A stretch of DNA of 63,252 nucleotides, the filler included, from Chrysochromulina tobinii (taxonomy: Eukaryota): the NCBI GenBank assembly GCA_001275005.1. It is 5 parts of 5 records of this genome, joined end to end, with 100 filler letters (N's around TTAATTAATTAA, not from the genome) between each part and the next. Parts side by side here need not be neighbours in the genome. Positions count along the whole stretch, not along the records: positions 8,594 to 27,684 come from JWZX01000427.1; positions 27,785 to 39,311 come from JWZX01000428.1; positions 39,412 to 50,037 come from JWZX01000429.1; 2 more parts are not named here. The stretch is one strand, 5' to 3'. Below the pieces are notes generated by a model. The model was not told where the DNA came from. It made no database searches and saw only the letters and a list, made by a program, of their open reading frames with translations. Position numbers and translations under genes: made by a program. Shown here piece by piece: positions 10,477 to 49,270 of this stretch. How positions within the stretch are numbered: the first letter of the stretch is position 1; every line of letters starts with the position of its first letter.

Positions 10477-13400
10477 ATGAGCGTGAGCGGCGCTTCCGCA
10501 AAGGCGGCGCACGTGGTGCTCCGACCGGTGCTCCACTTTGACGAGGAGGACTCCCAGGTGCGCTTCGACGAGTGCGCGCGCCGTCTCATCCTGATCAAGC
10601 ACCGCCAGTTTGCGGCCTTCTCCACCGTGCCAACGCTGCCGCCGATTGTGGTCGACTCCAATGGCAAGGTGGAGAACGTGCGCTTTTCGCTCAACCATCG
10701 CTTCGCGGCGCTGCAGCGCTCGGACACCGTCATCGACTTTGTCGACCTGCAGACCAATGCGTCGTTCACGCACGCCGTCAAAGGTGGCGGTTCACGTGGC
10801 CGTTGGCGCATCCTGTCCTACCATTGGACGGGCACCCCCGTCGCCGACTTCTTCGTCGTGACCACCGCGGGCGTCGAGTTTTACCTCGTGCTGCCCGAAA
10901 AGGGCTGCCTCAAGCTCGTCAAAGCACTCGCGCTCGCCGTCGCATGGGCCGTCTACTCGCACGCGACGCGCCTGCTGCTGCTCGCAACAGGCGCGCAGGA
11001 CAATGTGCTGCACGGCGTCCAGATACAGCCGAGCGCGCTGGTGCGGCTTCCCAAGTTTGAGGTGCAGCTGGCGCCGCCCGCCGAGTTGCCGTCCTCGGCA
11101 CAATCCCTGGGCCAGCCCAAGCTGCGCCGCTCATTGCTTCCGAACGACATCTTCGTCGCACGCCTGTACGAGTCGATCTATTGCATCCAAGTGGAGGCTG
11201 AGCGGCAACAGCTGCTCCTCTACCAGCTCTTCCGCGACTTTGTGGTGCGCAAATTCGCGCTCGCCATCTACTCGAGCCGCGCCGTGATGAGCGTCTCGGA
11301 CAACCTGCTTGTCGTCCACGCCCTCGACTCCAAGGTGAGCGCCGCACGAGAGAGAGAGACAGCGAGCCACTCTGTAGGGCCCTATCGCTATGCGCTCTCG
11401 CCCCTTGCCCCCCTCGCCCTCAACCCCCCTCCGCCCCTCCACACCGCCTCGCCACTTGCCCCCCCCCCCACTCGCCCCCGTCCACGCCCGTCGCAGGTAT
11501 GCCTCATCTTCGACCTGCGGATCAACCAGCAGTACCCGATCACGGCGCCGCTGCCGCTCGGCACGGTGGCTTCTGATCAGTTCTCGCCCCTCTACTCACC
11601 CCATTGGACTTTCGTGGCTCCGGACTTGGTGGTCGACCCTCAGGCGGGGCGCGTCGGCCAGCTGCGCATCGACCTGCACACCATCGTACGCTCGTCGATC
11701 GACAAGGCATGCCTGCTCCAGTTCCTGCTCGCGCGCACGCACTGCGCCGACGTGATCCTCGACGTCTTCAGCAAGTCGATTGCTGAGCAAGAGGAGCTAC
11801 CCACGCTCGCACGCATGTTCGACCTCGTGCACGCCGCGTACGCGCGCCAGCTGCTCATCAGGCATGCCGTCGTGAGCGCCCCGGCGCTCGGAAGCGCCTC
11901 GCCTGCTTCCAAAGGTGCCGACCGCCCGAGCACCACCAACAGCGTGGGGAGCAGCGCGAGCATGGGTGGCACGAGCTTCAGCTCGTCGGTTGCACAGCTC
12001 TCCTCGCCGGCACAGCAGCAGCCCTCGTCGCCGTCGACGCCCTCCGCGTCGGCCGCCGACGCCACGAGCCCGACCGCGACGATCACAGACTGGGTGGCCG
12101 CGACGAGCCTCTCGGACAGTATGGACGGTGATCGCGCCCAGGCCACCGGCGCCGCTGCCGCCGCCGGCAGCAGCGCCGCCGGGGGAGGCTCCGACGCCAG
12201 TGCAGTCGCTGGCAGCGGCGCCGGTGCCAACGGCTCGGCTGCAGCCGCCTCCGTGGCCTCGGCCTTCGGCGCCACGCTCCGTGTCCCCCCTGGTGCGCCC
12301 GCCTCTTTCGCTCCCCTGGCGCCGCCGTTTGACAACCAGCCGCCCTTGTACCCGAATGCCGCCACGCCCGACCCACTCGCCCCGACGCTACCCGAGGGTC
12401 CACCCGACTCGACCGCCTTCTTCGAGCGTGTGTTCACGCCGATGGTGAAGGGGCAGAGCACGCCGCCCAACGCTCGCTGCCCGCGCCGCCAATATGCGAT
12501 TGCAGTGCTCACCGAGTTCCTACTCTCGCAGCAGCAGCACTCTCTGCCCACGAACGCGGGCATCGGCACGCTCGCACTCATGCTGCTCGGCGAGCAGGGC
12601 TCCTTCTACCAGATGCACCAGCTCGTCCAGTTCATGCTCGTGCCAGATTCGATCGAGCTCGCGATGCGCCTGCTTTCCTTCGAGCCCAAGTACCCGCCGG
12701 CGGCCGAGCTCGCCATCGACATGCTACAGCGGCTCGGGCCGGGCGCCGTCGAGACGCTCATGGAGTGCCTGATGCGCCGCGGCTTGCTCCTCGCTGCGTG
12801 CCGGCTGCTGCGCTCGCAACGGATGGTGCTCTACCCGGCGCGCAGGCTGCTGCAGGCCGCTTTCGAGTCGGGTGATGCCACGCTCTTCGCAGCCGTGTAC
12901 ACGCACTTCGAGCAGCGGAACGAGGTGTGGCGTGGCTCCAAGGCCTTCCAAGTGCTCTGCGCTGCATGCAGGTGCTCACCACGACGCCCTCTCCTCTCCC
13001 CACAGGTGTGGCGTGGCTCCAAGGCCTTCGCGCCCGAGGAGGGATGCGCCGAGTACGTGGCCAAGTTTGAGGAGATGTTCGGGCCGCCGGCGACGATTGC
13101 GTATGGCCCCTTGCGCATGGATCGCGAGAGCGCACGGACGCAGCCGCTGCAGTCGCAATCGTTGCTGCCGTCGATCGCCGGCCCAACTGCCTCCGAGGAT
13201 GGCGAGGTGGCGGGTGTCACGACCGGCGATGTGACGAACCCCGGCACCGTAACCGACGGCGATGTGACGAACCCCGGCACCGTAACCGACGGTGCCGACG
13301 CTGACCGAGAGGAGTCCAACGGGCAGCTCGCCGAGGGCGGGTGGGGCCTCACAGAGCCCAACCCATCGGACAGCCTTGACGACGACGCGATGGCCTCGTC

Positions 13401-13500
13401 GCCTGACACCGCATGGAGCATGCCCACCGCAGCTGACCTCGCCTCGGCCAGCATTGCGCCCTCGTCGCCCCCCGCCGCTCCCCCCTCCGAAGCGGCTTAG
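10477..13500 (+). CDS. RMC1: Regulator of MON1-CCZ1 complex (RMC1/Mic1/C18orf8); two in-frame introns 11335-11496 and 12925-13005
   Basis: N-terminal beta-propeller-like region (VRFSLNHRFAALQRS, LVRLPKFEV) and C-terminal Mic1 domain (FYQMHQLVQFMLVPDSIELAMRLLS...YPPAAELAIDMLQRL...LFAAVYTHFEQRN). Both introns are 3n and stop-free (162 and 81 nt), hence the single ORF. Confidence 0.88.
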   Translation: MSVSGASAKAAHVVLRPVLHFDEEDSQVRFDECARRLILIKHRQFAAFSTVPTLPPIVVDSNGKVENVRFSLNHRFAALQRSDTVIDFVDLQTNASFTHAVKGGGSRGRWRILSYHWTGTPVADFFVVTTAGVEFYLVLPEKGCLKLVKALALAVAWAVYSHATRLLLLATGAQDNVLHGVQIQPSALVRLPKFEVQLAPPAELPSSAQSLGQPKLRRSLLPNDIFVARLYESIYCIQVEAERQQLLLYQLFRDFVVRKFALAIYSSRAVMSVSDNLLVVHALDSKVSAARERETASHSVGPYRYALSPLAPLALNPPPPLHTASPLAPPPTRPRPRPSQVCLIFDLRINQQYPITAPLPLGTVASDQFSPLYSPHWTFVAPDLVVDPQAGRVGQLRIDLHTIVRSSIDKACLLQFLLARTHCADVILDVFSKSIAEQEELPTLARMFDLVHAAYARQLLIRHAVVSAPALGSASPASKGADRPSTTNSVGSSASMGGTSFSSSVAQLSSPAQQQPSSPSTPSASAADATSPTATITDWVAATSLSDSMDGDRAQATGAAAAAGSSAAGGGSDASAVAGSGAGANGSAAAASVASAFGATLRVPPGAPASFAPLAPPFDNQPPLYPNAATPDPLAPTLPEGPPDSTAFFERVFTPMVKGQSTPPNARCPRRQYAIAVLTEFLLSQQQHSLPTNAGIGTLALMLLGEQGSFYQMHQLVQFMLVPDSIELAMRLLSFEPKYPPAAELAIDMLQRLGPGAVETLMECLMRRGLLLAACRLLRSQRMVLYPARRLLQAAFESGDATLFAAVYTHFEQRNEVWRGSKAFQVLCAACRCSPRRPLLSPQVWRGSKAFAPEEGCAEYVAKFEEMFGPPATIAYGPLRMDRESARTQPLQSQSLLPSIAGPTASEDGEVAGVTTGDVTNPGTVTDGDVTNPGTVTDGADADREESNGQLAEGGWGLTEPNPSDSLDDDAMASSPDTAWSMPTAADLASASIAPSSPPAAPPSEAA
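12925..13005 (+). other. Intron whose first 24 nt duplicate the downstream exon start; family-B 3' cassette
   Basis: AG|GTGTGGCGTGGCTCCAAGGCCTTC...TGCATGCAGGTGCTCACCACGACGCCCTCTCCTCTCCCCACAG|GTGTGGCGTGGCTCCAAGGCCTTC. Confidence 0.85.
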
Positions 13501-28931: not shown

Positions 28932-31900
28932 ATGGGCTTCCCGCGCTGCCCGCGCTGGCTCGCCGCCGCGACGGTGCTGCAGGGGATCGCCGCGACGGTG
29001 CTGCTCCTCTTGGTGATTCAGCCGACTACGGTGGTGGTGCAATCCTTGCAGCCGACTGCCTTGCCGCAGGGCTTCGCCGCGCTGATCAGTCCATCTGTCC
29101 CCGCCGTCACGGAGCCGCAGGCACAGATGCGAGGCCCGCCTGCAGCCGCTGCCCAGTTGGAGCATCCCGCCGCCGCCGACGCTGCCGCCAAGCGGTACGC
29201 GTACGGTGTCGAGGCGCCATTGGAGCTGCCCTCGCCGCCTCCGCCCGAGCCAGCGATGCCGGTTGCGTCGGCGGCGGCGGGATGCTCCGCCGACCGGCGG
29301 TACGACCGGTACCTCGCAAGCCGGCAGTGGACGGCGGCCGAGATGGCGGTGGTCAAGGGCATTGTCAACGCCAGCACGCCCACCGCCAAGCCTGCCACCT
29401 TCCACGGCTACGTGTGCTATCAGCACCGGAACGTGTCGGACGACCCACCACGACGGGGCTGCGCGAACACGGGCGGCGCGGGCGCAGCGCGGCGGAGCGA
29501 GCGGTGCCGAGCGCGCGAGCCAACGTTCCCGACGCCCGCGGGCACGTGCCTGTGCTGCCCGATGAAGGGCCACGTATGCCCGCCCTGCTGGGGCTGCCTG
29601 ATGCCGCTCTCTCGACGGCGCGCGTTTGGCGGCAAACTGTACCGATGCCGTGCTGTGGAACGCTGATGGCCTCTGATTGCAATGGAGTGCGATGATGGAG
29701 TGCGATGGAGTGCGATGGATTGCGAATGAGTGGGTCTGATTGCGTGCCTCATCAGGTACGAGCAGCACCTGATGACCTCTGATGACCTCTGATGACCTCT
29801 ATAACCTCTGATGACCTCTGATGGCCTCTGATGGCCTCTGATGGCCTCTGATGGCCTCTGATGACCTCTGATGGCCTGCCTCATCAGGTACGAGCGCGAG
29901 ACCGGGGGCACAGCCAACGTGTACCTCGCTGTGGAAGAGCTCCGAGGCGCCAAGGTCGATGTGGTCTTCAAGCTGCGTGATGGCGAGGTGAGGGCGAGGA
30001 GCGAGCCGCTGATTGCGTCTGATTGCGTCTGATTGCGTCCCTCATCAGTTGATGACGGGCGAGGAGGGCGAGTCCGCACGCTGATGACCTATGATTGCAT
30101 GCGTCTGATTGCGTCCCTCATCAGGTGACGGACGAGGAGCGCGAGTCCACTCGCCTTGTCTGATTGCATGCTGATTGCCTCTGATCGCGTCTGATTGCGT
30201 CCCTCATCAGGTGACGGACGAGGAGCGCGAGTCCACACGCCTTGTCGAAGCCGTTGGAGAGCGCTGCGGACTGGTGCGTGCCTAATGATCACGCAATCAG
30301 GAGCCTGATGATCACGCAATCAGGAGCCTGATGATCACGCAATCAGGAGCCTGATGATCACGCAATCAGGAGCCTGATGATCACGCAATCAAGAGCCTGA
30401 TGATCACGCAATCAAGAGCCTGATGATCACGCAATCAAGAGCCTGATGATCACGGATTGCCAATGAGTGCCACCACTCATTGCATGCTGATGACCTCTGA
30501 TTGCCTCGCTCATCAGGTGCGACCGATCGTCGCTCTCGAATGGGTCGCCGATCTCGCCATCCTTCGCCCCCCCACCACCTCCTCCACCAACTCCAGGGCC
30601 GCCTTCGACGCGCGCCGTCCCGAGCGCCGCCCGGCGGTGGCGGCCGAGCTCGCAAGGGGGGTCTCCGCGGACATGCTCATGCGCTCGCATGCCTTCGGCC
30701 CGAACAAGCAGGCGAGTGCCACTGATGATCGCCACTCGTTGCCCCTAATTGCGACTCAAGGACACTGATGGCCACTGATGACTGCTGATGACCACTGATG
30801 GCCACCGATGACCTCTGATGGCCACTAATTGCGCCCCCATCCCCTTCTGCGAAGCAGGAGAGGCAGGGGAGACGTGCGCGTGACATGGCGTGGCAGGTGG
30901 GCACACATTGTTTGCACCTCTGATTGCACCTCTGATTGCACCTCTGATTGCCCCTAATTGGCATCTGAGTGCCCTCCCTAATTTGGCAGCTTCGGCGGGT
31001 CGACTCCGCCTCCCTCGTCCAATCCGCTCTCTTCGACGCTCTGTTCGCATCGGGAGATCGACATCTGGAGCACCTCATGCTTCGGGAGGGTGGGGGGCTC
31101 ACCCTCATCGACAATGCGCACACCATCCTCACGCCCCGGTACCGCACAGACCGCCTCTGATGACCTCTGTGAGCCTCTCTTATGACCTCTGTGAGCCTGC
31201 CACGACAGGTACAACACGCGCCACACGCCCAACTCCCTCTTTCTTCCCGGCGCCAACTTCCATTTAAGGAACAAGCTCGGCTTTCCATTCTTGCACTGCT
31301 GCACCCTGCGCTCCACCTGCCCCACCCCCAAGCCGCGCACCTGCCCATTTCCCCACACGCTATACTGGCCCGCCTTGCCGCTCGACTACCGGTGCCACGT
31401 GCCGCGGGGGCGTGTGGGGAAAGCGCTGCCGCCGCGGATGGCGTCGTGTGTGAACGAGCTCGTTCACACCGAGCGGGCGGCGCTCGCGGCCCAGCTGGGC
31501 GTGCGCGCGGGCTCGCGCCGTCTTGAGCGCCTCGTGGGCCGCGCGAAGCTGTTACTCGAGCGCGGCCTTGAGGGGTGCGCTGATTGCCACTGATGACTGC
31601 TGATCACTACGCTGTTCTTCCTGAAATATGCCTGATTGCCTCCATCATCAGGGCGCTCCGGGCCACCGAATGGTCGCCCGGATACTACAATGAGGGCGCC
31701 TTGCATAACGGGGCTGGGGTACCCGCGCCGTGCTGTGCGATCACACTCGACGGGCGGACGGTGCGTGCATGCGTGCCGCTGATGGCGCCTGATTGCGCCT
31801 GAATGCTCCTGATTACACCCGATTGCGATCACGCTCGACGGGCGGACGGTGCGTGCATGCGTGCCGCTGATGGCGCCTGATTGCGCCTGATGGGACCTGA

Positions 31901-32283
31901 GCACACCGTCTTGGACTTGATGGGAGCTGATTGCGCCTGATTGCGCCTGATTGCGCATAGTAACGCCTGATGGGAGCTGATTGCGCCTGATTGCGCCTGA
32001 TTGCGCCTGATTGCGCCTAATTGCGCCTGATGGGATCTGATTGCGCCTGATGGCTCGCAGGGCAACCGCCAAGACGACGAGTGGCGCTGCCACGCACCCG
32101 TGGCCGAATCCCTCCAAACTTTCCAGTTTTGGGACGATGGACGGTTGGCATACGAAGCCGTTGGCGCCTCTGACGTGTTCGGCCATCCGTCGGCCTTCTT
32201 GCCGAAACGCGCTGCGCCGGGCGTCATCACGTCCGTCGCGCTCGCGGGGGCGCTGCACTCCTTCTCCCTGACGCATTGGGAAG
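28932..32283 (+). CDS. Type-II membrane, secretory-pathway kinase-like protein (FAM20/Four-jointed/PI3_4-kinase-like fold), multi-exon; 3' boundary uncertain
   Basis: Exons 28932-29638, 29888-29987, 30211-30273, 30517-30711, 30858-30896, 30990-31138, 31209-31574, 31652-31760, 32061- join in frame. N-terminal TM, GGTANVY...VVFK, ALFDALFASGDRHLEHLML...LTLIDNAH, NSLFLP, LDYRCHVP. Confidence 0.75.
30285..30450. repeat. Seven tandem copies of 23-mer ATGATCACGCAATCA(G/A)GAGCCTG inside intron 30274-30516
   Basis: Direct count: four G-type copies then three A-type copies. Confidence 0.9.
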
Positions 32284-32328: not shown

Positions 32329-34720
32329 TTGGCCGTCGCTCCGATTGGCACGTGGCGGGCCGAGTCGATGGCCTCATCGAGTGCGAGGGCGCGCGCCGTG
32401 GTGGGCGCCATGTCGAGCGCCGTGATGGGCGCCGTGATGGGCGCCGCCTCGGCGGCGGCGTTGCTGGCGGCAGCGGCGAGGCGGGGGGCAGGCGGGGGGC
32501 AGGCGGGGGGCGAGGCGGGGGCCGAGGCGGATGTCGTCTGTTCCGACGAGGATGAGACATTAGGAGCCGAAGGGGAGGCGATGGTGGCCGTTACGTCGGG
32601 TTTGGGGCTGTGGGCCACCATCTCCACCGAGGGCTCCGCCCTCGTGTGCGTCTTCCCCTGCCTTCGCCTCCGACGCGTTCATAGCCCGTCCTTGTCCGCC
32701 GGGCTGGTCGCCGCGGCCGTTGGCAACCTGAGCCTCCTCACTCTGACCAGGGATGGGGTGCTCTACGAAGCCAACGCCGCACGCCCGGAGTGGCGCTCGC
32801 GCCGTACCGAGCACTCGCGCCGTCCCGAGCGCGCGGTGCACGTGCCCCAGCTCGGGTGGTTACAAACGGTCGGAGGCTCTCTCGAGGGACGGCGCACGGT
32901 ACACGTGGCAGCGTCGTCGCGGGCGGCGGTTGCGGTCACCCGAGATGGTGCCGTCCATATTTGGACCTTGGCTCCTTATTTGGAAACGCCCTCGTCTCGC
33001 GAAGGGCATCCGGACGGACGGGCGGACGGAAGGGAGGACGGAAGGGCGGACGGGCGGGCGGACGGAAGGGCAGACGGACGGGCGGACGGACGGACGGACG
33101 ATTGCGATGCGGACAGCGCTGGCCAATGTACACGTGTCTCGCTGCGCTCTTCCGTCCCTCGCCCCCTTGCCCTTCGCGATCAAGGCAACGGCCAGGGCGA
33201 TAAGGACAAGGGCAAGGACGATGTGGGCGATGGGGAGAAGGGTCTCAGCGTGCTTGCGGTCAGCGCGGCGGTGAGTGCACCTGATTGCAACTGATTACAA
33301 CGGAATGAAGCTGATTGCGGTCCGTGCGGCGGTGAGTTGCGACGTACCTGCTCGTCCCTAATTTGGCAAGCTGCTCCGATTACAGTCTGATTGCCTCCCT
33401 CATCAGGTGAGTGCGACGCACCTGCTCGTCCTCAGCTCGGAAGGTGTCGTCTTCAGTGCAGCGCTGCCTCCGCCGACTGAGGCCAGTCCATATTTGGAAC
33501 GGGCGGCGCTCGGGCGTCCAACGGCCGCCGCCCCCGCCGCCGCCGCCGCCGCCGCCGCCGATGGTGATGATGATGATGATGATGCTGATGATGCGCGCGT
33601 TCTATCTCGGGTGCGCGAGATGCATGCGCGAGCTCAGGGGAGATCGTCCGAGAAGGCGCCTAATAAGGCAAAGCCGGCGCAGAGGATGCCGCTCATTAGC
33701 GCGATTGCGGCCGGGGATTCGTTCAGCCTCGCGATCGTTGGCTGGGGGCATTCGCGTGGCCAGCTGCTTTATTGGGGCGGCGACGGCGGTGGCGACGGCG
33801 GAGGTGACGGCGCTGCCGACGGCGGTGGCGACGGTCGCACACGCCAACGTGTTCCCCAATCGAGGCGCTTGCTTTCCGATCGCAATCAGAGGCGCTTGCT
33901 TTCCGATCGACCGGCCGATGTGGGCGATTGGTATCATGAGCTGTGGGGAAAACGATTCCTTCTGGTCTCTGCGTTTGGTCGACGCGCGCTCGCCCTTGCC
34001 GACGATGGTACGTCTGATGGCGTCTCTGATCGCGTCTCTGCTCGCGCCTCTGATTGCGCCTCTGATGGCGTCTGATTGCGTCTCTGATGGCGTCTGATGG
34101 CGTCTGATTGCCTCACTCATCAGGTACGCCACGTCGCCCTGATTGCCATTGATTGCAACTGATGGGCTGCCTGATGACCTCCCTCATCAGGCACGCTCTT
34201 CTGGTGGAGGCACGCGCCCGAGACGGCGCCTGAGACGGCGCCCGTCCATCGCGTCGAACCGACAGAGCCACCGGCGGTGCGCGCCCACCACGGCGCCACC
34301 CTAATTAGGGTCGTCCCTAATGTGGCACAGCAGCTACTGCCCCGAGTGCATGCGGATGGCCGCCCTGAGTGCCTCCCTCATCAGTCTGATTGCCTCCCTC
34401 ATCAGGCTGATTGCCTCCCTCATCAGGCTGATTGCCTCCCTCATCAGGCTGATTGCCTCCCTCATCAGGTGAGTGCGCTTGCAGCCGGGGCGTCCGTGGC
34501 ATTGCTTCTGGTACCGACCCATGACCTGCGACGGCCGCATGCAAGCGCTCACGCTTCCCCCGCTGCGGCGGCGAGAGGCAATCAGCCTGATGAGGGGGGC
34601 AATCAGCCTGATGAGGGTGGCAATCAGGACGGCCATCAGCAGGAGCGTCCGTTGCTAGCACAGCCTGCGCCATTGCCACGTCCTCTGCTGGTACGCACAG
34701 ACAACATCGGCGTGGTGCAG
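32329..34720 (+). CDS. RCC1-like repeat region (multi-exon), probably continuous with the flanking kinase-like and sulfotransferase-like exons
   Basis: Repeated RCC1-type segments VAAAVGNLSLLTLTRDGVLY, VAASSRAAVAVTRDGAVHIW, VSATHLLVLSSEGVVFS, IAAGDSFSLAI..GQLLYWG, ALALADDGTLFWW. Introns 33271-33406, 34008-34190 and one or two within 34277-34468. Confidence 0.65.
34365..34469 (+). repeat. Five tandem copies of 21-mer CTGATTGCCTCCCTCATCAGG (branch point + 3' splice site cassette)
   Basis: Direct count; an inverted copy lies at ~34575-34640. Confidence 0.92.
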
Positions 34721-34933
34721 GTAGGCCTCTGATGGCCTCTGATGGCCTCTGATTGCCGCACTGATGGCCTCTGATGAACTCTCTGATGGCCTCTGATGCA
34801 CGCTGATGGCCTTTGATTGCCACACTGATGGCCTCTGATTGCTAAACTGATGAACTCTGATGGCCTTTGATGCACGCTGATGACCACTGATGACCTATGA
34901 TGACCTCTGATGACCTCTGATTGCCCCCCTCAG

Positions 34934-36821
34934 GCCGCCTCCGCCATCCGAGGCGCTCTCTCCGCCGTGCGCGAGGGGCTGGGCGCCGGACCGGGCGCCG
35001 GACCGAGCGCCGTGCTGAGCGCGCGCACGCCCTGCTGGGGGGGCGTAACGGACGCGCCGTCGGACCGACCGAAACGCCCAGGACAGCGCCAGCACGACCC
35101 TCGGCAGCGTACCAAAGCGCCATCCTTCAAGGCTTGCCCACTGCGGCGCCCGTTGGACTGCCCCGAATGGCCCTCCAACTCCCCACAGCCTGCGGCACCG
35201 ACTGACGAAACTCAACGGCCGATTGACGAACCTCAACGGCCGGCTGACGAGCCTCGGCGGCGCTGCCTGCCCGCAGCCTTGGTGCTCGGCGCGCGCGGCT
35301 GCGGCGCCCCTGCCTTTGGTCAACGGCTGCTGTCCCACCCGGATGTGGCGCGTGCCCCCCGGGGGATGGCCCCCTGGTGGACGTACCCCTCCCTCGAGAA
35401 CTTCACAGGTGATTGCGACTGATTGCCCCCCGGGGGATGGCCCCCTGGTGGACGTATCCCTCCCTTGAGAACTTCACAGGTGACTGATGACCACTGATGA
35501 CCACTGATTGCGTCTGAGTGCATGCTCACACCCCTCCCTCGAGAACTTCACAGGTGACTGATGACCACTGATGACCACTGATTGCGTCTGAGTGCATGCT
35601 CACACCCCTCCCTTGAGAACTTCACAGAGCACCCGGGCATGCGCCGCGCCGTCGCGGGCGTTGTCGCTCGCGAAGGCGGCGCTCGACACGGCGCTCGGCA
35701 CGACGCTCGGCACGGCGCGCCGCCCGCGCCCGCGACGGCGCTCCTGCTCGTGCAGCAAAGCACACTGGATGCGCGATCGGCGGGATGGGGGCGCGTGCTG
35801 CGTGCCAAGGGCGTCGAGCTATTCGATCTGCTCCCGCGCGTGCAGGCGAGTCTCGTCAAACTGCCTCTGATGGCCTTCTGATGGCCTTCTGATGGCCTCT
35901 GATGGCCTCTGATGGCCTCTGATGGCTTCTGATGGCCTCTGATGAGCTCTGATGAGTTCTGTTCGACTTGTTTCTCTGATGGGTCTCGTCAATGAGTCTC
36001 GTCAATGGCCTCTGATGAGTTCTGTTCGACTTGTTCCCGCGTGTGCAGCCTGGGCTCAAGGTGATTGCCTCTCTCATTGCATGCTGATTGCATCCCTCAT
36101 TGCATGCGTGTGCAGCCTGGGCTCAAGGTGATTGCCTCTCTCATTGCATGCGGATTGCATGCTGATTGCATCCCTCATTGCATGCGTGTGCAGCCTGGGC
36201 TCAAGGTGCTCCTGTACGTCTGCGAGCCGCTCACGCGCCTTCACAGCCTCGAGAGGCGCCTTCACAGCCTCGAGAGGCGACGGGCGGCTTCGTCAACCCC
36301 TAATGGCGATGGCAATCGGGAGCGCGACTTGCCTAATTTGGATGGCAACTGGACGAGAGAGGCCCTGGCGCAGCTCGCGACGCTGAATGCATGCACCACG
36401 CACGAGCCGTTACCGACGTGCGCCGCGCGCCTCGCCGCCGCCAATCCGATAGTGGACGGGCTGTACGGCGTGTGGTTACGCGCGCTGTTGCGGGCGCTGC
36501 CGGCGGCGCAGCTGCGCGTGCTGCGCGCGGAGGACGAGGCGCGCGCGCCGTCGCGGGCGCTGCGCGAGGCGTGGCGCTTTTTCGGGCTGCGCGAATTGCC
36601 TAATTTGGACGACGGAGCGCTCGGTACGGCGCTCGGCGCGGCGCTCGGCACGGCGGCCCCTGGCCCCAAGCCGTGGAGATGAGGGTGAGCGGCCGGCGCT
36701 CAAGTCGGCGCTCGAGACGGGCGCCCTCGCCGCCCTCGCGGCCTTCTATCGCGAGCACAGCGCCGAGCTGGTGCAGCTGATGGATGGGGATGAGAGATTT
36801 GCGTGGGGTGCGGCGGCGTAG
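34934..36821 (+). CDS. Sulfotransferase-like domain (heparan-sulfate/GalNAc4S-6ST-like) with degenerate PAPS motifs and an apparent frameshift near 36600-36660
   Basis: Exons 34934-35408, 35628-35845, 36194-: CLPAALVLGARGCGAPAFGQRLLSHPDV..PWW, PGLKVLLYVCEPLTRLHS, GLYGVWLRALLRALPAAQLRVLRAED..WRFFGL. The typical C-terminus LAAFYREHSAELVQLMDGDERFAW* is in another frame. Confidence 0.7.
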
Positions 36822-37050: not shown

Positions 37051-38283
37051 ATGTCAGGCCTGGTCGCGGTTTGCTTGTCTGGCGAGTTGCGATCCTTTTA
37101 CCAGCCCTCCGTACAGGAGGGCCTGATCAAGAGGCTCGACAAGCCCGGGTACGAGTACTTCATCTCGACAGACCATGGATCCGCCGCCGCTGGGCCCAGG
37201 CCCGAGAGCATCGTCTCAACGGGCCGTGGAGCATCGGCGCCGTGGAACGACAGCATCAGCAACGACAGCATGGGCAGCAGTGAGGGCGCTGTCGTGGGCA
37301 GCACGCTCTCCGTGCGCAGCGTCTATGTCGACAGCGGCGAGACGCTCAGGCCCGACCGCAACGGCAACGAGCATGGGCAACTAAGCTGTCCACGAGGCAC
37401 AATGACCCATCCGTATCTCTTCCCGATGACGGTGCGCTTCGTGGCCTGTGCACGCCTCATCTTTCGCGAGGAGCGCCAGCGCCGCTTTTCGTACACGCAC
37501 GTCATCCGCACGCGCACGGATCTCCATTTTGTCGTCCCCTTTCCGCACCCGGAGGAGGCGTTGGCACGCGCGAACGCCGACGTGCTCCTCTTTGACGATC
37601 AGGTGCGCACTGAGTGCCACTGAGTGCCACTACTATCGTACTACTATCGTGGCCCCTATTGTAAACCTATGGCACTGGTCCCTACATGTAATTGATCCTG
37701 ATGTTACTTGATGTCGCTCCTTTGATGAGTACCTCATGAGACATTATTGATCCGCCTTGATCCTGATGAGTACCTCATGAGGTCATGAGCACCCGACCTG
37801 ACCCTCTTCGAACTTCGATGAGCACAGTTGGCTGTGGCACGTCGGTTGCATGCGGACGTGCTGCTGCTCAACCCTCTGCTCGCGTACCGCGAATGCCACG
37901 GACCGGAGGCGTGGGCGCGTGCATGCAACCAGAGCGTCGCGCGATCTCGATCTGATCTCGTGGCCCGCCGCACCCCCTGCTCGCCCATGAACCTCATCGT
38001 GAGCGAAGCAGATCGCACAAATCGCACCTCGGATGGCATCTGATGGCAACTGATGGCCTCCTGATTGGCCTCCTGATGGCCGCCTAATTGCCTCCCTCAT
38101 CAGGTGAGCTACCATCCAGAGCCGCTTCGGCTCGTCCAGTGCGGCTTCACGTTCTCCGTCAAAGCGCACTGTGCAGCCCTGTTTGCGCCGTGCCTGGCCG
38201 TGATTGTGAGGGCGCCTAATTCCACAGCGGGGTCGGGTGGAAAGAGCCGATGTATGCCGGTGGGGCGCCCTCTTGCAGGATGA
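37051..38283 (+). CDS. Putative glycosyltransferase-like protein (exons 37051-37602, 37828-37998, 38104-38283)
   Basis: VAVCLSGELRSF ... SYTHVIRTRTDL ... DDQLAV motifs; two phase-0 introns, the second ending CCTCCCTCATCAG. Confidence 0.65.
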
Positions 38284-38926: not shown

Positions 38927-39311
38927 ACCTGCCTTATTAGGGCCTGTGGTTGAGTCTGTCAGGTCGATGGTCGAAGAGAGAAGGCTCGCGTGGCCTCCCT
39001 TCACACCGCCCATGCTCTTCACAGCGGCCTCGAGCAGCCTGCCCCCCTCGACGTGCTTCTCGTTCAAGCCCTCCTCCGTAACGGCTGTCAGGAGCTCCCG
39101 CAGCAATCTCGGCTCATTCTCGCTCAGCCATGTGAGCACTTGCCTAAAATGGGCCGTCGGCCGTCGCAGGAGCCACGTCACTGGCCGCATGGTCCAGGTA
39201 TACCTGATGGAAGAGGCAATCAGCGGTCTTCAGAGGCAATCAGCGGCCATCGGCGGCCATCAGCGGTACTCAGGGCCAGATGGTTCACGCGTACCCGTCC
39301 TCAAGCAGGGG
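38927..39311 (-). CDS. Internal fragment of an unknown gene (5'-truncated); intron 39204-39294
   Basis: PLLEDG|YTWTMRPVTWLLRRPTAHFRQVLTWLSENEPRLL after removing a minus-strand CTGAT-repeat intron ending CTTCCATCAG; next probable donor GTGAGC at ~38928. Confidence 0.55.
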
Positions 39312-40594: not shown

Positions 40595-43299
40595 ATGAAC
40601 CAGCAGGTTATCCTTCTGGAGGATGGCTGGAACCGGCTAAAGACGGGCGGTGTGCAGAAGATTGAGGAGATCCTCGAGGACATGCAGGGCGGCGTCTACA
40701 AGACCAAGATCAGCACCGACGAGTACTCGAACCTCTACACGTGCGCCGCGCCACGAGTCGCGCGCCCAGCGATGCCGTCGCCGCGCGCGTGCAGCCACAG
40801 CACCGCTGTCTCCCTGCAGCCGCCCACACAGTCCTTGCCATCCAACTCTACTCTCCCCTCACTGACGCGCCTCTCGCTCGGCCCGCAGCACCGTGTACAC
40901 GATGTGCACCCAGAAGCCCCCGAACAACTGGTCCGAGCAGCTGTACAACTACTACTGCGAGGCCGTCAAGGAGTACCTGTCGGCGCGCATCCTGCCGCGC
41001 ATCAAGGAGAAGCACGACGAGAGCATGCTGCGCGAGCTCGTGCGCCGGTGGGAGAACCACAAGCTGCTCGTGCGCTTCCTGTCACACGTGTTCAAATACC
41101 TGGACCGCTTTTACGTCAAGCGGCTGTCACTCCATGAGCTCGCCGAGGTCGGCTCTCAAGCCTTCCACGACATCGTGTTCAACGCGATGAAGCGCGACGT
41201 GCGAGCGGCGATCCTCGAGCTGATCCGTAGGGAGCGCGAAGGCGAGATGGTGGACCGCAAGCTGATCAAGCAGGTGGTCGAGATCTTCGTCGACATGGGC
41301 GGCCAGCGCAACTCGCTCGAGGTGTATGTGCAGGACTTTGAGGACATGCTGCTCTCGACAACGGGTGCGCGCGCGCGCATGCAACCTGCGCCCGCCAACT
41401 GCCCATCTGCGCGTTGCTGGCTGCATGCAGTCGGCTGCATGCAACCTGCGCCCGCCAACTGCCCATCTGCGCGTTGCTGGCTGCATGCAGTCGGCTGCAT
41501 GCAACCTGCGCCCGCCAACTGCCCATCTGCGCGTTGCTGGCTGCATGCATTCGGCTGCAGGCAGTTGGCTGCATGCAGCCGCACGCGCCGGCGTGGGCCG
41601 CTCCCTGGCGCCGCCTCCCTCTCGCGCCGCTGACCCTCTGCTCGCCGCGCGCTCGCTCGCTCTCTTTGCAGCCGACTTTTACTCGCGGGAGGCATCCAAG
41701 TGGGCCGAGGAGGACTCGTTTCCCGACTACATGTGCAAAGCTGAGGACCGGCTCTCGCAGGAGAAGCAGCGCGTGGAGAACTACCTTCACTCCTCGACGG
41801 AGGAGAAGCTGCTCAAAGTGTGCGATGAGCAGCTGCTGCAGACTCCCGAGCAGCTGCTGCTCGAGAAGGAGAACTCGGGGTGCGAGGCGCTGCTGCGCGA
41901 TAACAAGACAGAGGACCTCTCGCGTATGTTCCGGCTCTTCTCGCGCATCCCGACGGGCCTGCCGCCCATCGGCAACATCGTGCGCAAGCACATCACCGAC
42001 GTGGGCCTCTCGCTCGTCAAGGCGCAGGGCTCGGCGCCCGAGGGCGACATGATGGTCTACGTGCAGGAGCTGCTGGACGTGCACGACAAGTACACGGACC
42101 TCGTGGGTCCCGGCCCCGATAAGGGCTGCTTCCAGGGCCACACCATCTTCCACAAGGCGATGAAGGAGGCCTTCGAGGTCTTCGTCAACAAGGACATCGG
42201 CAAGACGTCCACCGCCGAGCTGCTCTCCAACTTTTGCGACAACTTGCTCAAGAAGTCGGGCGAGCGCCTCTCGGACGATGCGCTCGAGGACAAGCTCGAG
42301 AAGGTGGTGCGTCTCTTCTGCTACCTGTCCGACAAGGACATCTTTGCCGAGTTTTACAAAAAGCAGCTCGCGAAGCGGCTGCTGCTCGCGCGCTCGTCGA
42401 GCGACGACGCGGAGCGTGCGATGATTGCGAAGCTCAAGCTGCGCTGCGGCGCGCAGTTCACCTCGAAGCTCGAGGGCATGGTCACCGACATGAACCTCTC
42501 GAGCGACATGCAGACGGCCTTCGTCGAGCACCTGCGCGAAAAGGAGGTTCAGCTCGAGACGGACCTGTCAGTCCAGGTGCTCACCACCGGCTTCTGGCCG
42601 ACGTACAAGTCGGACGACCTCAACCTACCCGCCGAGATGATGAAGTGCATCGAGACCTTCAAGTCATTCTACGACATTCGCACCTCGCACCGCCGGCTGA
42701 GGTGGGTGCACTCGCTCGGATCGGCGACGGTGCTCGGCACCTTCCTCCCGGGCGGCAAGCCCAAGAAGCACGATCTGATGGTCTCCACCTACCAGGCGTG
42801 CATCCTGCTCGTCTTCAATGAGCAGGACACGATGTCCTTCAACGACATCAAGACGCAGCTCAACCTGCCCCCCGATGAGCTCAAACGGTACGCGCTCTCG
42901 CTCTGCGTGGGCAAGTTCAAGATCCTGCTCAAGGAGGGGGCCGACCCCAAGTCAGTCGAGACCGAGGATACGTTCAAGTACAACGCCGCCTTCACCGACC
43001 GCGCGCGCCGTATCAAGGTGCCGATGATCGCCGCCAAGATCTCGCAGGAGGAGAAGGACGCCACGCGCGCCACCGTCGACGAGGACCGCAAGCACGCGAT
43101 CGAGGCCGCCATCGTGCGCATCATGAAGACGCGCAAGACGCTCGACCACACGAAGCTTGTGCTCGAGGCCTCCAACCAGCTGCTCCGCCACTTCAAGCCC
43201 GACCCCAAGCAGATCAAGAAGCGCATCGAGGATCTGATCGCGAGGGAGTACTTAGAGCGAGACCCGAACAACAATACCGTGTACAAGTACCTCGCGTGA
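40595..43299 (+). CDS. CUL1: Cullin-1 (exons 40595-40740, 40889-41364, 41672-43299)
   Basis: [64 protein letters not shown], neddylation domain [15 protein letters not shown]...[21 protein letters not shown]. Confidence 0.97.
41377..41558. repeat. Three 60-nt tandem repeats in cullin intron 2
   Basis: GCATGCAACCTGCGCCCGCCAACTGCCCATCTGCGCGTTGCTGGCTGCATGCAGTCGGCT x3. Confidence 0.92.
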
Positions 43300-43680: not shown

Positions 43681-46600
43681 ATGGCAGAGGCGTGGGAGCT
43701 CAGCGACGAGGCCCTGTTGTCGATGCCTGAATTCGCGGGCAACGGCACATCCGTGGCGCCCAGCGCTGCGGCTGGCACCAGCGGTGCGGCCGTGCCTCAC
43801 TACGTCGCCAGCCTCAACGCCGCCCAGCGCGATGCGGTCCTCGCACCCATCGATCAACCGCTGCAGATCCTCGCCGGCGCAGGGTCGGGCAAGACATCTG
43901 TGCTGACCGCGCGAATACAGCACATGCTCGCCTCTGGAATACCTGCTTCGCGCGTGCTCGCGCTCACATTCACCAAAGCGGCGGCCGAGGAAATGCGTGA
44001 GCGTCTTCAACGCGCAGTCGGGCCGACGGCCGAGAAAGTGACTATCTCGACGTTCCACGCTCTCTCGCTGGCACTCTGCCGATCGTACGCCGATGCAGCG
44101 GGTCGGCCACGCGACTTCAAAGTCTGGACGACGCGACAGCAGATCAACGCCGTGCGCAAAGCTCTTGCCGAGCTGCGCGTGGCCACAGCGGCGGAGGCTC
44201 GGCCGCAACTGCCGCAACAGCCGCTGTTGCCAGTCTCGATGGCTGCCCAGGCTCCTGCGCCAGTCGCGCCGGACGACGAGGCGGCAGCGGGTGTCACGAC
44301 GGCGGCGGCGGCGGCCAAAAGCTCCGCCGACCCGTCGCGGCTGCTGACGTCGATCATGCACGCCAAGGCACGAGGGCAAGCAGTGGCCGACGGGCAGCTA
44401 CGCACCGTGTACGAGCGGTACACGTCACTGATGCTCCAGGCGAACGCCTTCGACATGCTCGACTTTCTCCTAGTCGCCACGGCCGCGCTCCGTGGCTCCG
44501 CCGAGGCACGCGCCGCCGTGCACCGCAGGCACACCCACGTGCTGGTCGACGAGTTTCAGGATACGAACGCGTTGCAGCTCGAGCTGCTGCGGCTCCTTGT
44601 CAAACCTGCCGACGTGGGTGGCGATGGCGGCAGCGGCGGCGGAGGCGGCTGCCTCACCGTTGTGGGGGATGACGACCAAGCCATCTACGGCTTCCAGGGC
44701 GCCAGCGGCTCCTTTGAACCGTACCGTCTAATGAGCTTCTGATTACCTCTAATGAGCTCTGATTGCCTCTGATTGCCTCTAATGAGCTCCTTTGATCGTA
44801 CCGTCAAGCCTGATTACGCTGATTATGATGATTAAGCTTGATTACGATGATTAAGTACCGTCAAGCCTCCCCCTCAACGCGTCGAGTCACCCTCGGAGTC
44901 CTGCATGCAAGTGCTCACCATCACGCCCTCTCCCCACAGGTACCGTCAAGCCTTCCCCTCAACGCGTCGAGTCATCCTCGCCCAAAACTACCGCTCAACT
45001 TCCACACTCGTCTTCGCGTCGGCCGCACTCGTCGGCCACAACTTGGGCCGCACGCCCAAGAACGCATGGACGCACCAACCAGCGGGCGAGCCCATTGTCA
45101 TTGCCGAGTGCCGCACGGTCGCCAATGAGTGCCGATACGTGTGCGAGGGCATCCGGCAGATGCTGCGAAGTGGGCGTCAGCCGCGTGACATTGCCATCCT
45201 GTTTCGCACGGCGCGCGTCGGCATGGTGATGCAGCAGGCGCTGTGCACCGCCGCGCTGCCCTTCAATTCGCATGCGGCCAACCTGTGGGAAAGCCGCGCG
45301 GTGCGCGAGCTGCGCGCGCTTCTCGAGGTGCTCGTGGCGCCGGCCGATGACGACGCCTTCGAGAGCGCCGTCGTGGCGCTTGTGCCGACGCACGCCGCCG
45401 AATTGCTGGGCTTCCTCCACCAGAGACGCCCGGGCAGCCGCAGGCTGGGCGGCAAGGGCGGCAGGGGCACCAGGGGCGCCAGGAGCGGCAGGGGCGGTAG
45501 AGGCGGCCTGGGTGGCGGTCGAGGACGACAGGCAAGCCCGGGCGGCGGCGGTGTCGAGGCCGACGGTGGGGGCGAGCGCTGTGGCGAGCGGTGGCTTTCT
45601 CTGCGGGCGGTGGCCGAGCAGCTGCGCGCCGAGCACCAAGACGATCCTCCGCGTCGTCCCAAGCGTCCGAAGCTTGATGAGGCGGACCAATTGACGAAGC
45701 ACGACCAGGCCGCCAACGCCGAGAATATGGATCGTGCCGGCAAGGGCGCGCTCGGGGTCAGTAGCGGCGCCAAGGGCGGCGGCAGCGGCGGCGGCGGCGC
45801 CAAGGGCGCCAAGGGCGGCGGCGGCGGCAGCGGCGGCAGCGGCGGCAGCGGCGAGGGCGGCGGCGGCGAGGGCGGCGTCGGCGTCTTCAACGGCGCTCAT
45901 TACGACGCGCTGTGCAAGTGCCTCGGTACGCTCATCACGACGCTCGAGCGCCGTATCGGTATCCTGCTTGCAAGTGCTCACCATCGCGCCCTCTCCCCAC
46001 AGGTACCCTCGAGACGCTCGAGCGCCGTATCGGTATCCTGCAGCTCCGGGCGCTGCTCAACCGTTGCGTCGAGGCGCTGCCGTCCAAGGGCGCGCTCAAC
46101 TCGGCGCCGCGCTCGCGCGTGGGCTCGTCACTGCTCAACGAGCGCGCGGAGACACGCACGACGCTTGCCATCGTGCAGGAGGCGGTGCAGACCTTTGAGC
46201 GCTGCTTTGAGCCTTCACAGCGCCTTTCACAGCCCTTGGAGCCGCAGCCCGCCGCATACACCGGCACCGCACCGACCGGCACGACGGCGGCAGGGGAGAC
46301 GGCGGCGCGGGGGGCTGCCACGCTGCCTCCGAAGCCCACCGCATTCGCCCCACCGGCGGCAGGTGCGATCTCCCTTGATTGAACTAGATTGCCCTTGATT
46401 GCCCTTGATTGCCCACCGCATTCGCCCCACCGGCGGCAGGTGCGGTGGCGGCAGGAGCGGCAGCGGCCTCCCTACCAGATGAGCCGTCCGCGTCCGCGCT
46501 ACCGGACGCTGCCGGCGCCCGTGCCGAGCGCTGCCGCGAGCGGCTTCGCGGACTGCTCGATCACTTTGAGCTCCTGTCCTCGGAGCAGGTGCGATCTCCC

Positions 46601-47181
46601 TTGATTGCCTTTAATTGCCCTTGATTGACCACTTTGAGCTCCTCTCCTCGGAGCAGGTGCGATCTCCCTTGATTGAACTTGATTGAACTTGATTGAACTT
46701 GATTGCCTTTGATTGAGCTTGATTGCCCTTGATTGCAGGAGGGTCGCATCTCGAAGGACAACGATCTCCCTCGATCTCCCTTGATTGCAGGAGGGTCGCA
46801 TCTCGAAGGACAACGCCGACGCGATCACGCTCTGCTCCATCCATGGCGCCAAGGGTCTCGAGTGGCCCATTGTCTTTGGCGTGCGCTTCAACGAAGGCGA
46901 GTGCCCGCTCACCGACGCGAGTACGGTGAGCCGCGTGCTGCTGGCGCTGTGCTCGGTGGCTCCCCGGGATCTGCGACTGACTCCTGGCGTCTGATTGCCA
47001 CCTTCATCAGGCTGCCATCGAGGAGGAGCGCCGCCTCGCGTACGTCGCTATTTCGCGCGCCAAGGAGCACCTCGTCCTCTCGCACGTCGCCACCGACCCG
47101 TCCGGAGCGCCGCTCGAGCCCTCGCGATTCCTCGCCGAGCTGCCGCCTCCCCTCGTGAGACGCACCCTCGCGTACTTTTGA
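43681..47181 (+). CDS. UvrD/PcrA/Srs2-like SF1A DNA helicase (introns 44721-44939, 45926-46002, 46363-46439, 46589-46790, 46926-47010)
   Basis: Motifs LNAAQRDAV, AGAGSGKT, ALTFTKAAA, STFH, VDEFQDTN, VGDDDQAIYGFQGA, QNYRST, SIHGAKGLEW, EEERRLAYVAISRAK, PSRFL; all five introns restore the frame. Confidence 0.93.
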
Positions 47182-47345: not shown

Positions 47346-48202
47346 ATGGACGAGCTGCCACTGGACTCTGTTCCAAAGGCGGCTTTCGCCGACTGGACGT
47401 CGGGCGTTCGCGACTCGGCGGCGGTCGCAGCGCTCGAAGAGGCTGCCGATTCGGTCACCCTCTCGGCTCTCGCAAGCCTCCGTGAGGTGTGTGGCGCCCC
47501 GGGCTCCTCGTGGGCGACGCTGCTCGGCGGCGTGCGCCGCAACAGCAGCGGGGAGGTCGAGCCCCTGCTTGCGCTGCTGCTCGCGCTCCTCGCGCGGCCC
47601 AACACCGCCGCGCCCGCGGCGTCCGCGCTGCTTGCCGCGATGAGCTGCGGTGGCGCCGCGAGCCACGGCGTCTTCCATCCGCTCGTGCTCTTCGAGCTGA
47701 CCAAGGCGCTCCGCCTTCTGCTCGACGAGGGAGCAATGGAGGAGGATCGCACGCCGGTGCTCGACGGGATCCGTCAGCTCCTCGAGCGCTCGCCGCTCCG
47801 CTCGCACGCGGAGGTGCACGCCCAGCTCATCGCGCTGCTCGCGGGCGTGGGTGCATACGCGCAGCTCGGCCTGTGCCTGGGCGACACGCACGGCGATGCG
47901 GAGCACACGCTGCCCGCCGTGATGCGCGCGGTGCTCCCAACGCTGGCGCTCGAGCACGGCACCGACGCCAAGGCGCTCAGCGCGCAGCGCGAGTGCGTCG
48001 ACTTTGTCGCGCTCGCGGTCGAAGGGCAGCTGTCGATGGCGGGCGTGACGGAGGAAGGTGGCAAGCGCGCAGCCGCGGCCCTCCAGGCCGTGCAGGCACT
48101 CCTCCAGCGCGCCTCGGTCGCCGCGCACGACCGCGCGCGCGACAAGGTGTGCGCGGGACTCGCGCGCCTGCTCATGCGCCTGCCGCCCGTGGCGAGCGAC
48201 GC
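47346..48202 (+). CDS. NCAPD3: Condensin II HEAT subunit CAP-D3-like, first exon only
   Basis: AASALLAAMSCGGAASHGVFHPLVLFELTKALR and LLQRASVAAHDRARDKVCAGLARLLMRLP resemble CAP-D3 N-terminal segments; probable donor GTATGT at 48203 followed by GATGACCTCT repeats; no continuation found on this contig. Confidence 0.6.
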
Positions 48203-49270
48203 GTATGTCGGCTTCCTAATTAGCTGCATGACCTCTGATGACCTCTTGATGACCGCTGATGACCTCTGATGACGCTCGAGCAGGTGCTCCCCTCTGATGA
48301 CCTCTGATGACCTCTGATGACCTCTTGATGACCGCTGATCACACACATCATCTTAATGTAACAAAGACGCCACGGCGTGAGAAGTTCTCCGGGAAGTTCT
48401 CAGACTCTTCGTACCGGTTAAGGACCCTATATTCGACTTAGAAGCAAGCTCCAAGCAAGCAAGCATTTGAGTGCTTCGCCGTGCTTGCATCTTACACCGG
48501 GGGAGCCGGACACGAGACATAGCACTTTCACTTAAGAACCTGATACCTGAAGAACCGAACCGACACACCGACGCATGCGCTCGACCACGCCAATGTGCCC
48601 CGGTGCCCACCAAGCTCCCAACTCCCAGCGGCCGACCGTCAGAATGAGGCCACCCCCTTCGACGCCCCCTGCGAACCTGAGACCGGCCCCTTGAGCCCTG
48701 GCCTCGATCAGGGACCTCGACAGTAACTCGACAGTAACTCGACAGTGTAACTCGAAAGACCTCGACAGACCAACCTCAGCCGCCAGCCTGACCGCTGACC
48801 CCATGCTCCCTCGAGCCACGCGGCTCGCGGGCCTCTCGGGCGGGTCGTCGGACGTCGCGGCCGCGGGCCGGGCGCGGGAGTGCGTGTTTGAAAATGTGTG
48901 TTTGCTATTCGTAATAAATGGCTAGACGGTGGCGATCGCTTCTGATATGCTAGGAGCGGAGGCGCTAGGACGACTACATCGCCGTGCTCGCTACACGGAC
49001 AGCGAGGCGCGTTGCCGCTCAAGGTGTCACCCGCGCCACGCCGCCACCATGATCGTAACCATCGTATAGCTTCCTTGCATGCTTCCTTGATCCTTGTAAT
49101 GCAGACTTGAATCGAACGCCATGCTAATGGAACACACCATACGCTGGTGGCCGAACAAGGCCGGCCGCTAGTGAAAGCCGATCCGCCACCCTCGGGCCAC
49201 AGCAACTGGCATCTCCTGCGTATAGTGCGTACTCCCACAATCTCTAAGCCCAGTCTGTAAGAAAGGCAGC

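What the first reader, a model, noticed from the sequence alone, without database searches (positions are those of the whole stretch)
12925..48340. Candidate intron-generating system: exon duplication supplies one splice site, a stereotyped cassette supplies the other
SEEN: in unrelated genes on three contigs (RMC1, kinase/RCC1/sulfotransferase locus, GT-like gene, minus-strand gene at 39.2 kb, helicase, CAP-D3) frame-restoring introns start with a copy of the first bases of the downstream exon. Examples: 12925 (24 nt), 29639 GTAC, 29988, 30274 GTGCG, 31139 GTAC, 33271 GTGAGTGC, 37999 GTGAGC, 44721 GTACCGTC, 45926 (~40 nt). Most of these end in one of a few shared cassettes (CTGATTGCCTCCCTCATCAG or GCAAGTGCTCACC..CCTCTCCCCACAG); a third ending, CCCTAATTTGGCAG, closes intron 30897-30989. 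Donors are often non-consensus (GTGTGG, GTACCG), as expected if borrowed from coding sequence. Cassette orientation follows the gene strand (39204-39294 on minus). ESTABLISHED: introner transposons in algae such as Aureococcus and Micromonas can co-opt a splice site from a short fixed-length TSD and carry terminal inverted repeats. INFERENCE: here duplications vary from 4 to 56 nt, there are no TIRs, and the filler is a variable-number repeat. This points to a different mechanism, such as staggered-break repair or TPRT/telomerase-like templated addition of a branch-point+AG cassette that splicing then removes cleanly.
Basis: partly seen in the sequence, partly recalled or inferred. Interest (0 to 1): 0.9.

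Follow-up and report, generated by a model that had tools for sequence, protein, structure and literature searches.

The report
Introns half exon copy, half cassette
In a freshwater alga (Chrysochromulina), many introns consist of a 9-55-base copy of the neighbouring coding sequence joined to a short shared cassette, likely made by pasting pieces of other introns into genes, which would make this alga a place to watch new introns arise.

Summary
The pattern is real and extends beyond the window. The DNA is from Chrysochromulina (RMC1 matches C. tobinii). In 140 further loci plus the window, 97 of 183 cassette-ended introns start with a copy of the next exon, against 2.4% in shuffled pairs; copies are 9-55 nt. 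RNA contigs splice two such helicase introns; two relatives read through all five helicase sites. The basic unit is duplication-insert-duplication, spliceable in three registers (donor borrowed, acceptor borrowed, both), often repeated at one site, mostly sense-strand and genic, without terminal inverted repeats. Corrections: several introns are in frame, 12925-13005 has no stop and its donor is unproven; 4-6-nt copies alone are chance-level; the CAP-D3 site is not a demonstrable intron. Likely mechanism: pieces of existing introns are copied, probably from RNA, into staggered breaks, and only spliceable (about 60 nt or more) or in-frame products survive. No enzyme, master template or close empty allele was found. 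It works like an introner but fails the fixed-duplication and end-to-end-similarity criteria. New variant; interest 0.75.

The parts
12925..13005 (+). RMC1 intron 2, 81 nt: exact 24-nt copy of 13006-13029, then family-2 cassette; in frame, stop-free; donor GTGTGG not shown by RNA
29639..29887 (+). family-1 intron, 4-nt copy, with nested 29-nt re-duplication across the acceptor
29988..30210 (+). family-1 intron, three stacked exon-start copies, newest and longest next to the exon
30274..30516 (+). family-1 intron, 5-nt copy; holds an antisense tandem run of a cassette variant (about 30280-30450)
30712..30857 (+). filler intron, GC donor, 6-nt match to upstream exon end
30897..30989 (+). filler intron ending CCCTAATTTGGCAG; last 6 nt match upstream exon end
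31139..31208 (+). filler intron, 4-nt copy (chance-level alone)
31575..31651 (+). family-1 intron, no clear copy
31761..32060 (+). filler intron with a 67-nt duplication across the donor
33271..33406 (+). family-1 intron with an inner copy of the uninterrupted exon junction (two successive events inferred)
34008..34190 (+). family-1 intron (two cassettes)
34364..34468 (+). tandem copies of the family-1 cassette; splicing status unknown (open frame if kept)
34721..34933 (+). filler intron ending CCCCTCAG
35409..35627 (+). stack of donor-bearing inserts, each followed by a copy of the upstream exon end (22-56 nt): acceptor borrowed; model tentative
37999..38103 (+). family-1 intron, 6-nt copy
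39204..39294 (-). family-1 intron of the minus-strand gene, decayed copy
44721..44939 (+). helicase intron 1: nested 8-, 14- and 41-nt exon-start copies, family-2 cassette; often retained in RNA contigs
45926..46002 (+). helicase intron 2: about 42-nt gapped copy, family-2 cassette; 11-nt spliced anchor in RNA
46363..46439 (+). helicase intron 3: 34-nt duplication straddling CAG|GT supplies both splice sites
46589..46790 (+). helicase intron 4, spliced in RNA; duplications across both splice sites
46926..47010 (+). helicase intron 5, spliced in RNA; family-1 cassette, no detectable copy
48212..48340 (+). filler after a truncated gene; no acceptor; not a demonstrable intron
40741..40888 (+). 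control: plain cullin intron, spliced, no cassette or copy
41365..41671 (+). control: plain cullin intron, spliced, no cassette or copy
11335..11496 (+). control: plain RMC1 intron 1

Best explanation
These introns are a 9-55-base copy of the neighbouring exon joined to a short insert shared with other introns, and they likely arise when a piece of an existing intron, probably as spliced-out RNA, is copied into a staggered break in a transcribed gene. Shown: the product is T-X-T (duplicated target T around insert X). It is removed exactly if GT or GC starts T and X ends in AG (donor borrowed), if T ends in AG and X starts with GT (acceptor borrowed), or if T holds AG|GT (both borrowed). Inferred: a reverse transcriptase, primed at a nick through 1-3 matching bases at a G|GT site or after partial reverse splicing, copies the 3' part, 5' part or middle of an intron; the second strand is joined 10-55 nt away by microhomology. 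Inferred: the cassettes (20 and about 45 nt) are too short to be introns, so selection keeps only events whose duplication plus insert reach about 60 nt, or that stay in frame; this is why duplications are long. Each new intron can be a template and a target again, and the repeats then expand by slippage.
For: 97 of 183 cassette ends carry an anchored copy, null 2.4%; lengths continuous 9-55 nt. Three registers: 48, 12 and 20 of 132 non-nested events; 181 of 391 events spliceable against 26% by chance. G before the first copy in 35 of 38 first-time events, AG in 18 of 38 against 5% background. Microhomology at the copy/insert joint mean 2.1 against 1.2 simulated, p=0.001, 35 of 52 scorable. 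Sense strand: 320 of 332 neighbouring clusters within 600 nt agree, 75 of 79 agree with codon strand (44 ambiguous). 12 of 250 clusters in long non-coding DNA against 16.3% expected. A 55-nt donor-bearing subfamily, 6 copies in 4 loci, starts at AG|GTACG. Neighbouring introns share 37 nt or more in 2 of 116 pairs against 0 of 15,965 distant pairs. Copy and insert lengths anticorrelate (rho -0.49, n=52; -0.56, n=48); none of 48 non-nested donor-borrowing events is under 60 nt; the 8 shortest family-2 units (63 nt or less, threshold chosen after the fact) are all multiples of 3. RNA splicing; relatives lack the introns.
Against: No reverse transcriptase was found (10 motif-bearing frames scanned, none hit; about 1% of the genome seen). 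The family-2 core has a sharp 5' start (G in 111 of 117), unlike random 5' truncation. Antisense inserts exist (12 of 332 discordant pairs). Mean filler similarity of neighbours is not above that of distant introns. In the general catalogue only 2 of 5 non-nested units under 60 nt are multiples of 3. Selection alone would give exact splice-site ends and sense orientation inside exons. No empty allele in a close strain: all 12 covering members listed of one strain cluster carry the RMC1 insert, none seen in 10 homologous pairs.
Confidence: 0.5

Rival explanations
1. DNA-only break repair: polymerase-theta-type end joining fills a staggered break, duplicating the overhang and capturing a snippet templated on abundant intronic repeats; selection keeps spliceable or in-frame products.
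For: Variable duplications, microhomology, extra bases between copy and core (gaps up to 27 nt), neighbour copying, antisense inserts, in-frame excess among non-spliceable events (29 of 52, p=0.0007). Break repair is a listed route of intron gain (PMC3296678 passages).
Against: Near absence from non-coding DNA, where such events should pile up; the same few cassettes recur in unrelated genes; 95% sense orientation.
Confidence: 0.25
2. Tiny non-autonomous retro- or DNA elements (introners) moved in trans by a dedicated enzyme that makes long, variable target duplications.
For: Family-2 core is a defined 24-nt unit with a sharp 5' start, 117 copies; donor-bearing subfamily; a marine Chrysochromulina introner carries its donor, borrows its acceptor and lacks inverted repeats; non-LTR introners exist.
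Against: No inverted repeats, no constant length (inserts 21-227 nt), family-1 inserts have no shared 5' end, no autonomous element seen; published families have one fixed duplication of 3-8 nt.
Confidence: 0.14
3. Two steps: a plain 60-90-nt tandem duplication containing AG|GT makes the intron, then repeats overwrite part of it by slippage and conversion from other introns.
For: Unit length peaks at 60-95 nt even for nested events; strains 98.9% alike differ by 80 nt of filler; AG|GT bias.
Against: 24 of 52 copies are still 100% identical to the exon yet already have a complete cassette; 20 of 38 first-time sites lack AG before the copy, so duplication alone gives no acceptor.
Confidence: 0.07
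4. A telomerase-like enzyme with its own antisense RNA template extends the broken sense strand with branch-point repeats and a fixed AG end.
For: Microhomology at the copy's 3' end, tandem cassette copies (34364-34468), sharp family-2 start, CCCTAA-like filler.
Against: Several unrelated cassettes, variable pyrimidine tracts, unique neighbour-shared fillers; no Rfam hit.
Confidence: 0.04

Closest known systems
Introners that borrow a splice site from the target duplication: Chrysochromulina sp. family 5 and Symbiodinium (Gozashti et al., 10.1101/2022.06.06.494994; seen: passages, outline, part 1 of Results, part 1 of Methods; supplements not seen)
   Same: Insert carries one splice site, duplication supplies the other; the marine Chrysochromulina family lacks inverted repeats and carries its donor, like the acceptor-borrowing register here.
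   Different: There 4-nt fixed duplication and end-to-end similar introns; here 9-55 nt, up to half the intron is host sequence, insert is low-complexity and variable. That screen required similarity at both ends and removed low-complexity families, so it would likely miss these.
Introner-like elements of Polarella glacialis (10.1101/2020.10.14.339549; seen: passages and section 5)
   Same: Several registers, including both sites from the duplication (class 14); single-strand classes.
   Different: Each class has one duplication length (3, 4, 5 or 8 nt); no continuous length range or recursive stacking described in what was read.
Intron gain by double-strand-break repair (Daphnia) and by tandem genomic duplication (seen only as passages of PMC3296678; the Daphnia paper is not held)
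   Same: Direct repeats around a filler; duplication supplying splice sites.
   Different: There single events with unrelated fillers (recalled for Daphnia); here a few stereotyped fillers in many genes.
[quoted passage not shown]
   Same: Exact 3' joint, variable 5' joint with truncation, microhomology and extra bases: a working analogy for the donor-borrowing register.
   Different: Ribozyme plus own reverse transcriptase, experimental; gives exon deletions, and no target duplication is described in the section read.
Spliceosome-driven intron transposition proposed for introners without transposon marks (PMC11146597; seen: passages)
   Same: Predicts genic, sense-strand insertion of short non-coding introns.
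   Different: Predicts whole introns without long duplications; here only parts of introns move.

Membership tests
Introner (Gozashti 2022 definition) | 4 or more introns similar up to near both splice boundaries | tested here: not met
   One end is a unique exon copy of 9-55 nt; inserts have no shared 5' start in family 1
Introner (Gozashti 2022 definition) | repeated sequence removed by splicing from unrelated genes | tested here: met
   RNA joints at 46589-46790 and 46926-47010; 205 cassette ends
Introner (Gozashti 2022 definition) | recent gain: empty site in relatives | tested here: inconclusive
   Absent in relatives at 43-51% protein identity (assumes these frames were called on DNA without introns); present in all 12 covering close strains listed
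DNA-transposon (MITE) introner | terminal inverted repeats | tested here: not met
   2 of 48 inserts reach 6 nt, none 8; mixed halves 2.9%. The 20-nt cassette has only 5-nt complementary ends, z -0.8
DNA-transposon (MITE) introner | one fixed short target duplication | tested here: not met
   continuous 9-55 nt, 12-46 nt for family 2
non-LTR retro-insertion (TPRT) | variable target duplication with one fixed insert end and microhomology at the other | tested here: met
non-LTR retro-insertion (TPRT) | random 5' truncation | tested here: inconclusive
   family 1 ragged, family 2 sharp
non-LTR retro-insertion (TPRT) | cognate reverse transcriptase and RNA intermediate | not testable with these tools
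   no genome held; none in 725 kb sampled
Break-repair intron gain | filler unrelated between events, no genic or strand bias before selection | tested here: not met
   shared cassettes; 12 of 250 in non-coding DNA against 16.3%; de novo events not observed
Tandem-duplication intron gain | whole intron is a copy of flanking exon with AG|GT | tested here: not met
   every scored event has a foreign insert, but the catalogue required one, so pure duplications were not counted
Generic 3' splice consensus | all introns end in the cassette | tested here: not met
   0 of 5 plain introns in the window; automated control gave only 4 candidates

The most novel reading that the evidence does not exclude
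Introns in Chrysochromulina multiply without any transposon: halves of spliced-out introns are written back into transcribed genes at G|GT sites, a long copy of host exon makes up the rest of the new intron, and this has built thousands of introns, perhaps a third of those in the genome.
Probability: 0.3. Interest if true: 0.92.

Novelty: new variant of a known kind. Interest (0 to 1): 0.75.

Why it matters
How new spliceosomal introns arise is a long-open question, and bursts of gain are credited to introner transposons. Here the gain leaves long footprints of graded age (identity 83-100%) in a cultured alga with a 59-Mb genome, and falls in a blind spot of introner screens. About 107 cassette ends per Mb away from the search anchors would mean roughly 6,000 introns (rough, biased upward, inferred). 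Strain sequencing and mutation accumulation could test RNA-templated against repair-driven gain directly. Practically, these introns mislead gene models: two annotations splice RMC1 differently.

Tried and rejected
No whole genome was held. Viral collections: 0 hits for cassette 1, 5 for a degenerate filler that look like chance or unrelated repeats, 1 for cassette 2 on a 68% GC contig that looks like algal DNA. Prokaryote genomes: 5 hits, all without filler context. No Rfam match; 7 folded pieces no better than shuffles. First broad detectors were swamped by repeats and were replaced; some gapped copies fall in 'none' and nested events include repeat-on-repeat matches. Empty sites: 10 homologous pairs gave none; the paralogue search was swamped and its output cut. 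Automated plain-intron control gave 4 candidates, 2 of them cassette variants. Donor improvement after insertion: 5 of 5 changes at +3 go to A, but positions 3-6 are not more changed than the rest (p=0.37): weak. Misassembly rejected: same structure in many independent assemblies, copies diverge 4.6%, strain variants differ inside the RMC1 insert, DNA contigs run through both ends of 44721-44939. RNA was laid only on 39412-50037; RMC1 and the third contig were not tested. Rows dropped: 251 hits to 202 unique to 113 terminal; 219 ends to 205 after removing antisense-repeat artefacts, 183 scorable.
Full report
Source. The window is five contigs joined by N spacers; no genome is held. The RMC1 gene matches Chrysochromulina tobinii Ctob_010768 (a haptophyte), and RNA runs holding the helicase are from fresh water. 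Pfam confirms RMC1, cullin and a UvrD helicase, but not CAP-D3, kinase or sulfotransferase in the pieces scanned.

Observation in the window. Of 21 filler-bearing introns tabulated, 12925-13005 opens with an exact 24-nt copy of the next exon, 45926-46002 with a gapped copy of about 42 nt, 44721-44939 with stacked 8-, 14- and 41-nt copies, 46363-46439 is bracketed by a 34-nt duplication that holds CAG|GT, and 35409-35627 ends in copies of the upstream exon; others have 4-8 nt or nothing. Five plain introns have no cassette and at most 3 nt of match. Eight successive introns each clear the first stop of the gene at 28914, and five give a full helicase. The RMC1 insert is in frame and stop-free; the C. 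tobinii model removes all 81 nt, the C. parva model uses a later donor. The 48210 site has no acceptor.

Splicing and age. RNA contigs skip both plain cullin introns (3 of 3 RNA runs) and helicase 46589-46790 (1 of 4) and 46926-47010 (2 of 4). For the two helicase introns with long 5' copies the evidence is thin: an 11-nt exon anchor at 46002, a contig starting at 44940 with 10 unaligned letters, and unspliced contigs into 44721 in three runs. So the long-copy class is not yet proven spliced by reads. Two relatives (51% and 50% identity; contigs up to 34.7 and 17.7 kb) read through all five helicase sites and a 43% relative through the RMC1 site, assuming these frames were called without introns. 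Close strains all keep the RMC1 insert, diverged inside the copy but not in the exon (12 of 12 covering members; 15 of 28 listed).

Beyond the window. A scan for the 19-nt cassette gave 140 loci, with about 2,700 stretches estimated in the collection. Of 113 unique terminal cassettes, 102 are followed by GT or GC and 52 have an upstream anchored copy of the exon start (null 1.8%), 9-55 nt long. With both cassette families and gaps allowed, 97 of 183 score 10 or more (null 2.4%; family 1 78 of 159, family 2 19 of 24). Copies are 83-100% identical, 24 of 52 perfect. A catalogue blind to splice signals found 391 duplication-insert-duplication events; non-nested ones were 48 donor-borrowing, 12 acceptor-borrowing, 20 straddling and 52 not spliceable, the last enriched for multiples of three. 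The loci were chosen for holding cassette 1, so proportions are biased to it.

Marks of mechanism. G precedes the first copy in 35 of 38 first-time events and AG in 18; the copy/insert joint has excess microhomology (p=0.001); fillers are about 95% sense and rare in long non-coding DNA (12 of 250 against 16.3%; most of the 12 look genic); there are no inverted repeats. Family 2 is a 24-nt core with a sharp start, followed in 68 of 117 copies by a variable pyrimidine tract and CAG. A 55-nt subfamily starts at a donor and links both families. Two of 116 neighbouring pairs share 37 nt or more, none of 15,965 distant pairs, though mean similarity is not raised. Copy and insert lengths trade off, with a floor near 60 nt for new introns. 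Filler number varies between strains.

Explanation. The one-event-plus-selection frame is well supported. The template is inferred. I commit to copying of intron pieces, likely from spliced-out RNA (0.5), because insert ends coincide with intron ends in both directions and events are genic and sense. DNA end joining with templated capture (0.25), a tiny element with its own enzyme (0.14), duplication then overwriting (0.07) and a telomerase-like template (0.04) remain. No enzyme was found in 725 kb.

Known systems. It works like introners that borrow a site from the target duplication, including a marine Chrysochromulina family and Polarella classes, but fails their fixed 3-8-nt duplication and both-end similarity; the published screen filtered such cases. 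The 2025 survey's main text does not name haptophytes but lists non-LTR introners. The C. tobin genome paper mentions introns once, about one per gene in 59 Mb. Joint structure resembles linear group II retrohoming; spliceosome-driven insertion has been proposed for introners without transposon marks. Searches found no description of this pattern; the library lacks most subscription papers, and supplements were not read. I recall 10-11-nt intronic repeats reported in Emiliania huxleyi; no call confirmed this.

Verdict. Real, widespread, partly mis-described; a new variant of intron gain by duplication-flanked insertion, with an open and testable mechanism. Interest 0.75.

Noticed in passing
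window 30280-30450 and 34570-34640: Antisense tandem copies of cassette 1 inside plus-strand genes; the cassette has 5-nt complementary ends, so both orientations start CTGAT and end TCAG.
   Followed up: partly
window 33659, 34300, 36332, 36599, 52316: CCTAAT-type filler motifs inside apparent coding sequence; may be inserts kept as amino acids.
   Followed up: partly
L035, L016, L044: Family-2 cores between duplications with periods of 42-63 nt, all multiples of three, some tandemly repeated: a possible source of protein repeats.
   Followed up: partly
window 47346-48340: Gene stops in filler; a DNA contig of higher depth diverges at 48223: truncated paralogue or misjoin.
   Followed up: partly
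L019, L040, L047, L073: A 55-nt donor-bearing subfamily joins family-1 repeats to the family-2 core.
   Followed up: partly
all loci: Duplication plus insert peaks at 60-95 nt even for events nested in existing introns, where a minimum intron size need not apply; unexplained.
   Followed up: no
window 44721-44783, 46363-46381: RNA contigs, one from a poly(A) library, read into these introns: splicing may be inefficient, or DNA is present.
   Followed up: no
window 41385-41560: The plain cullin intron 2 holds its own three-copy 60-nt repeat, unrelated to the cassettes but with TGCATGC.
   Followed up: no
window 28914-32555 and 32581-36822: The 'kinase/RCC1/sulfotransferase locus' reads as at least two genes; only weak RCC1-like Pfam matches, no kinase or sulfotransferase match in the pieces scanned.
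   Followed up: partly
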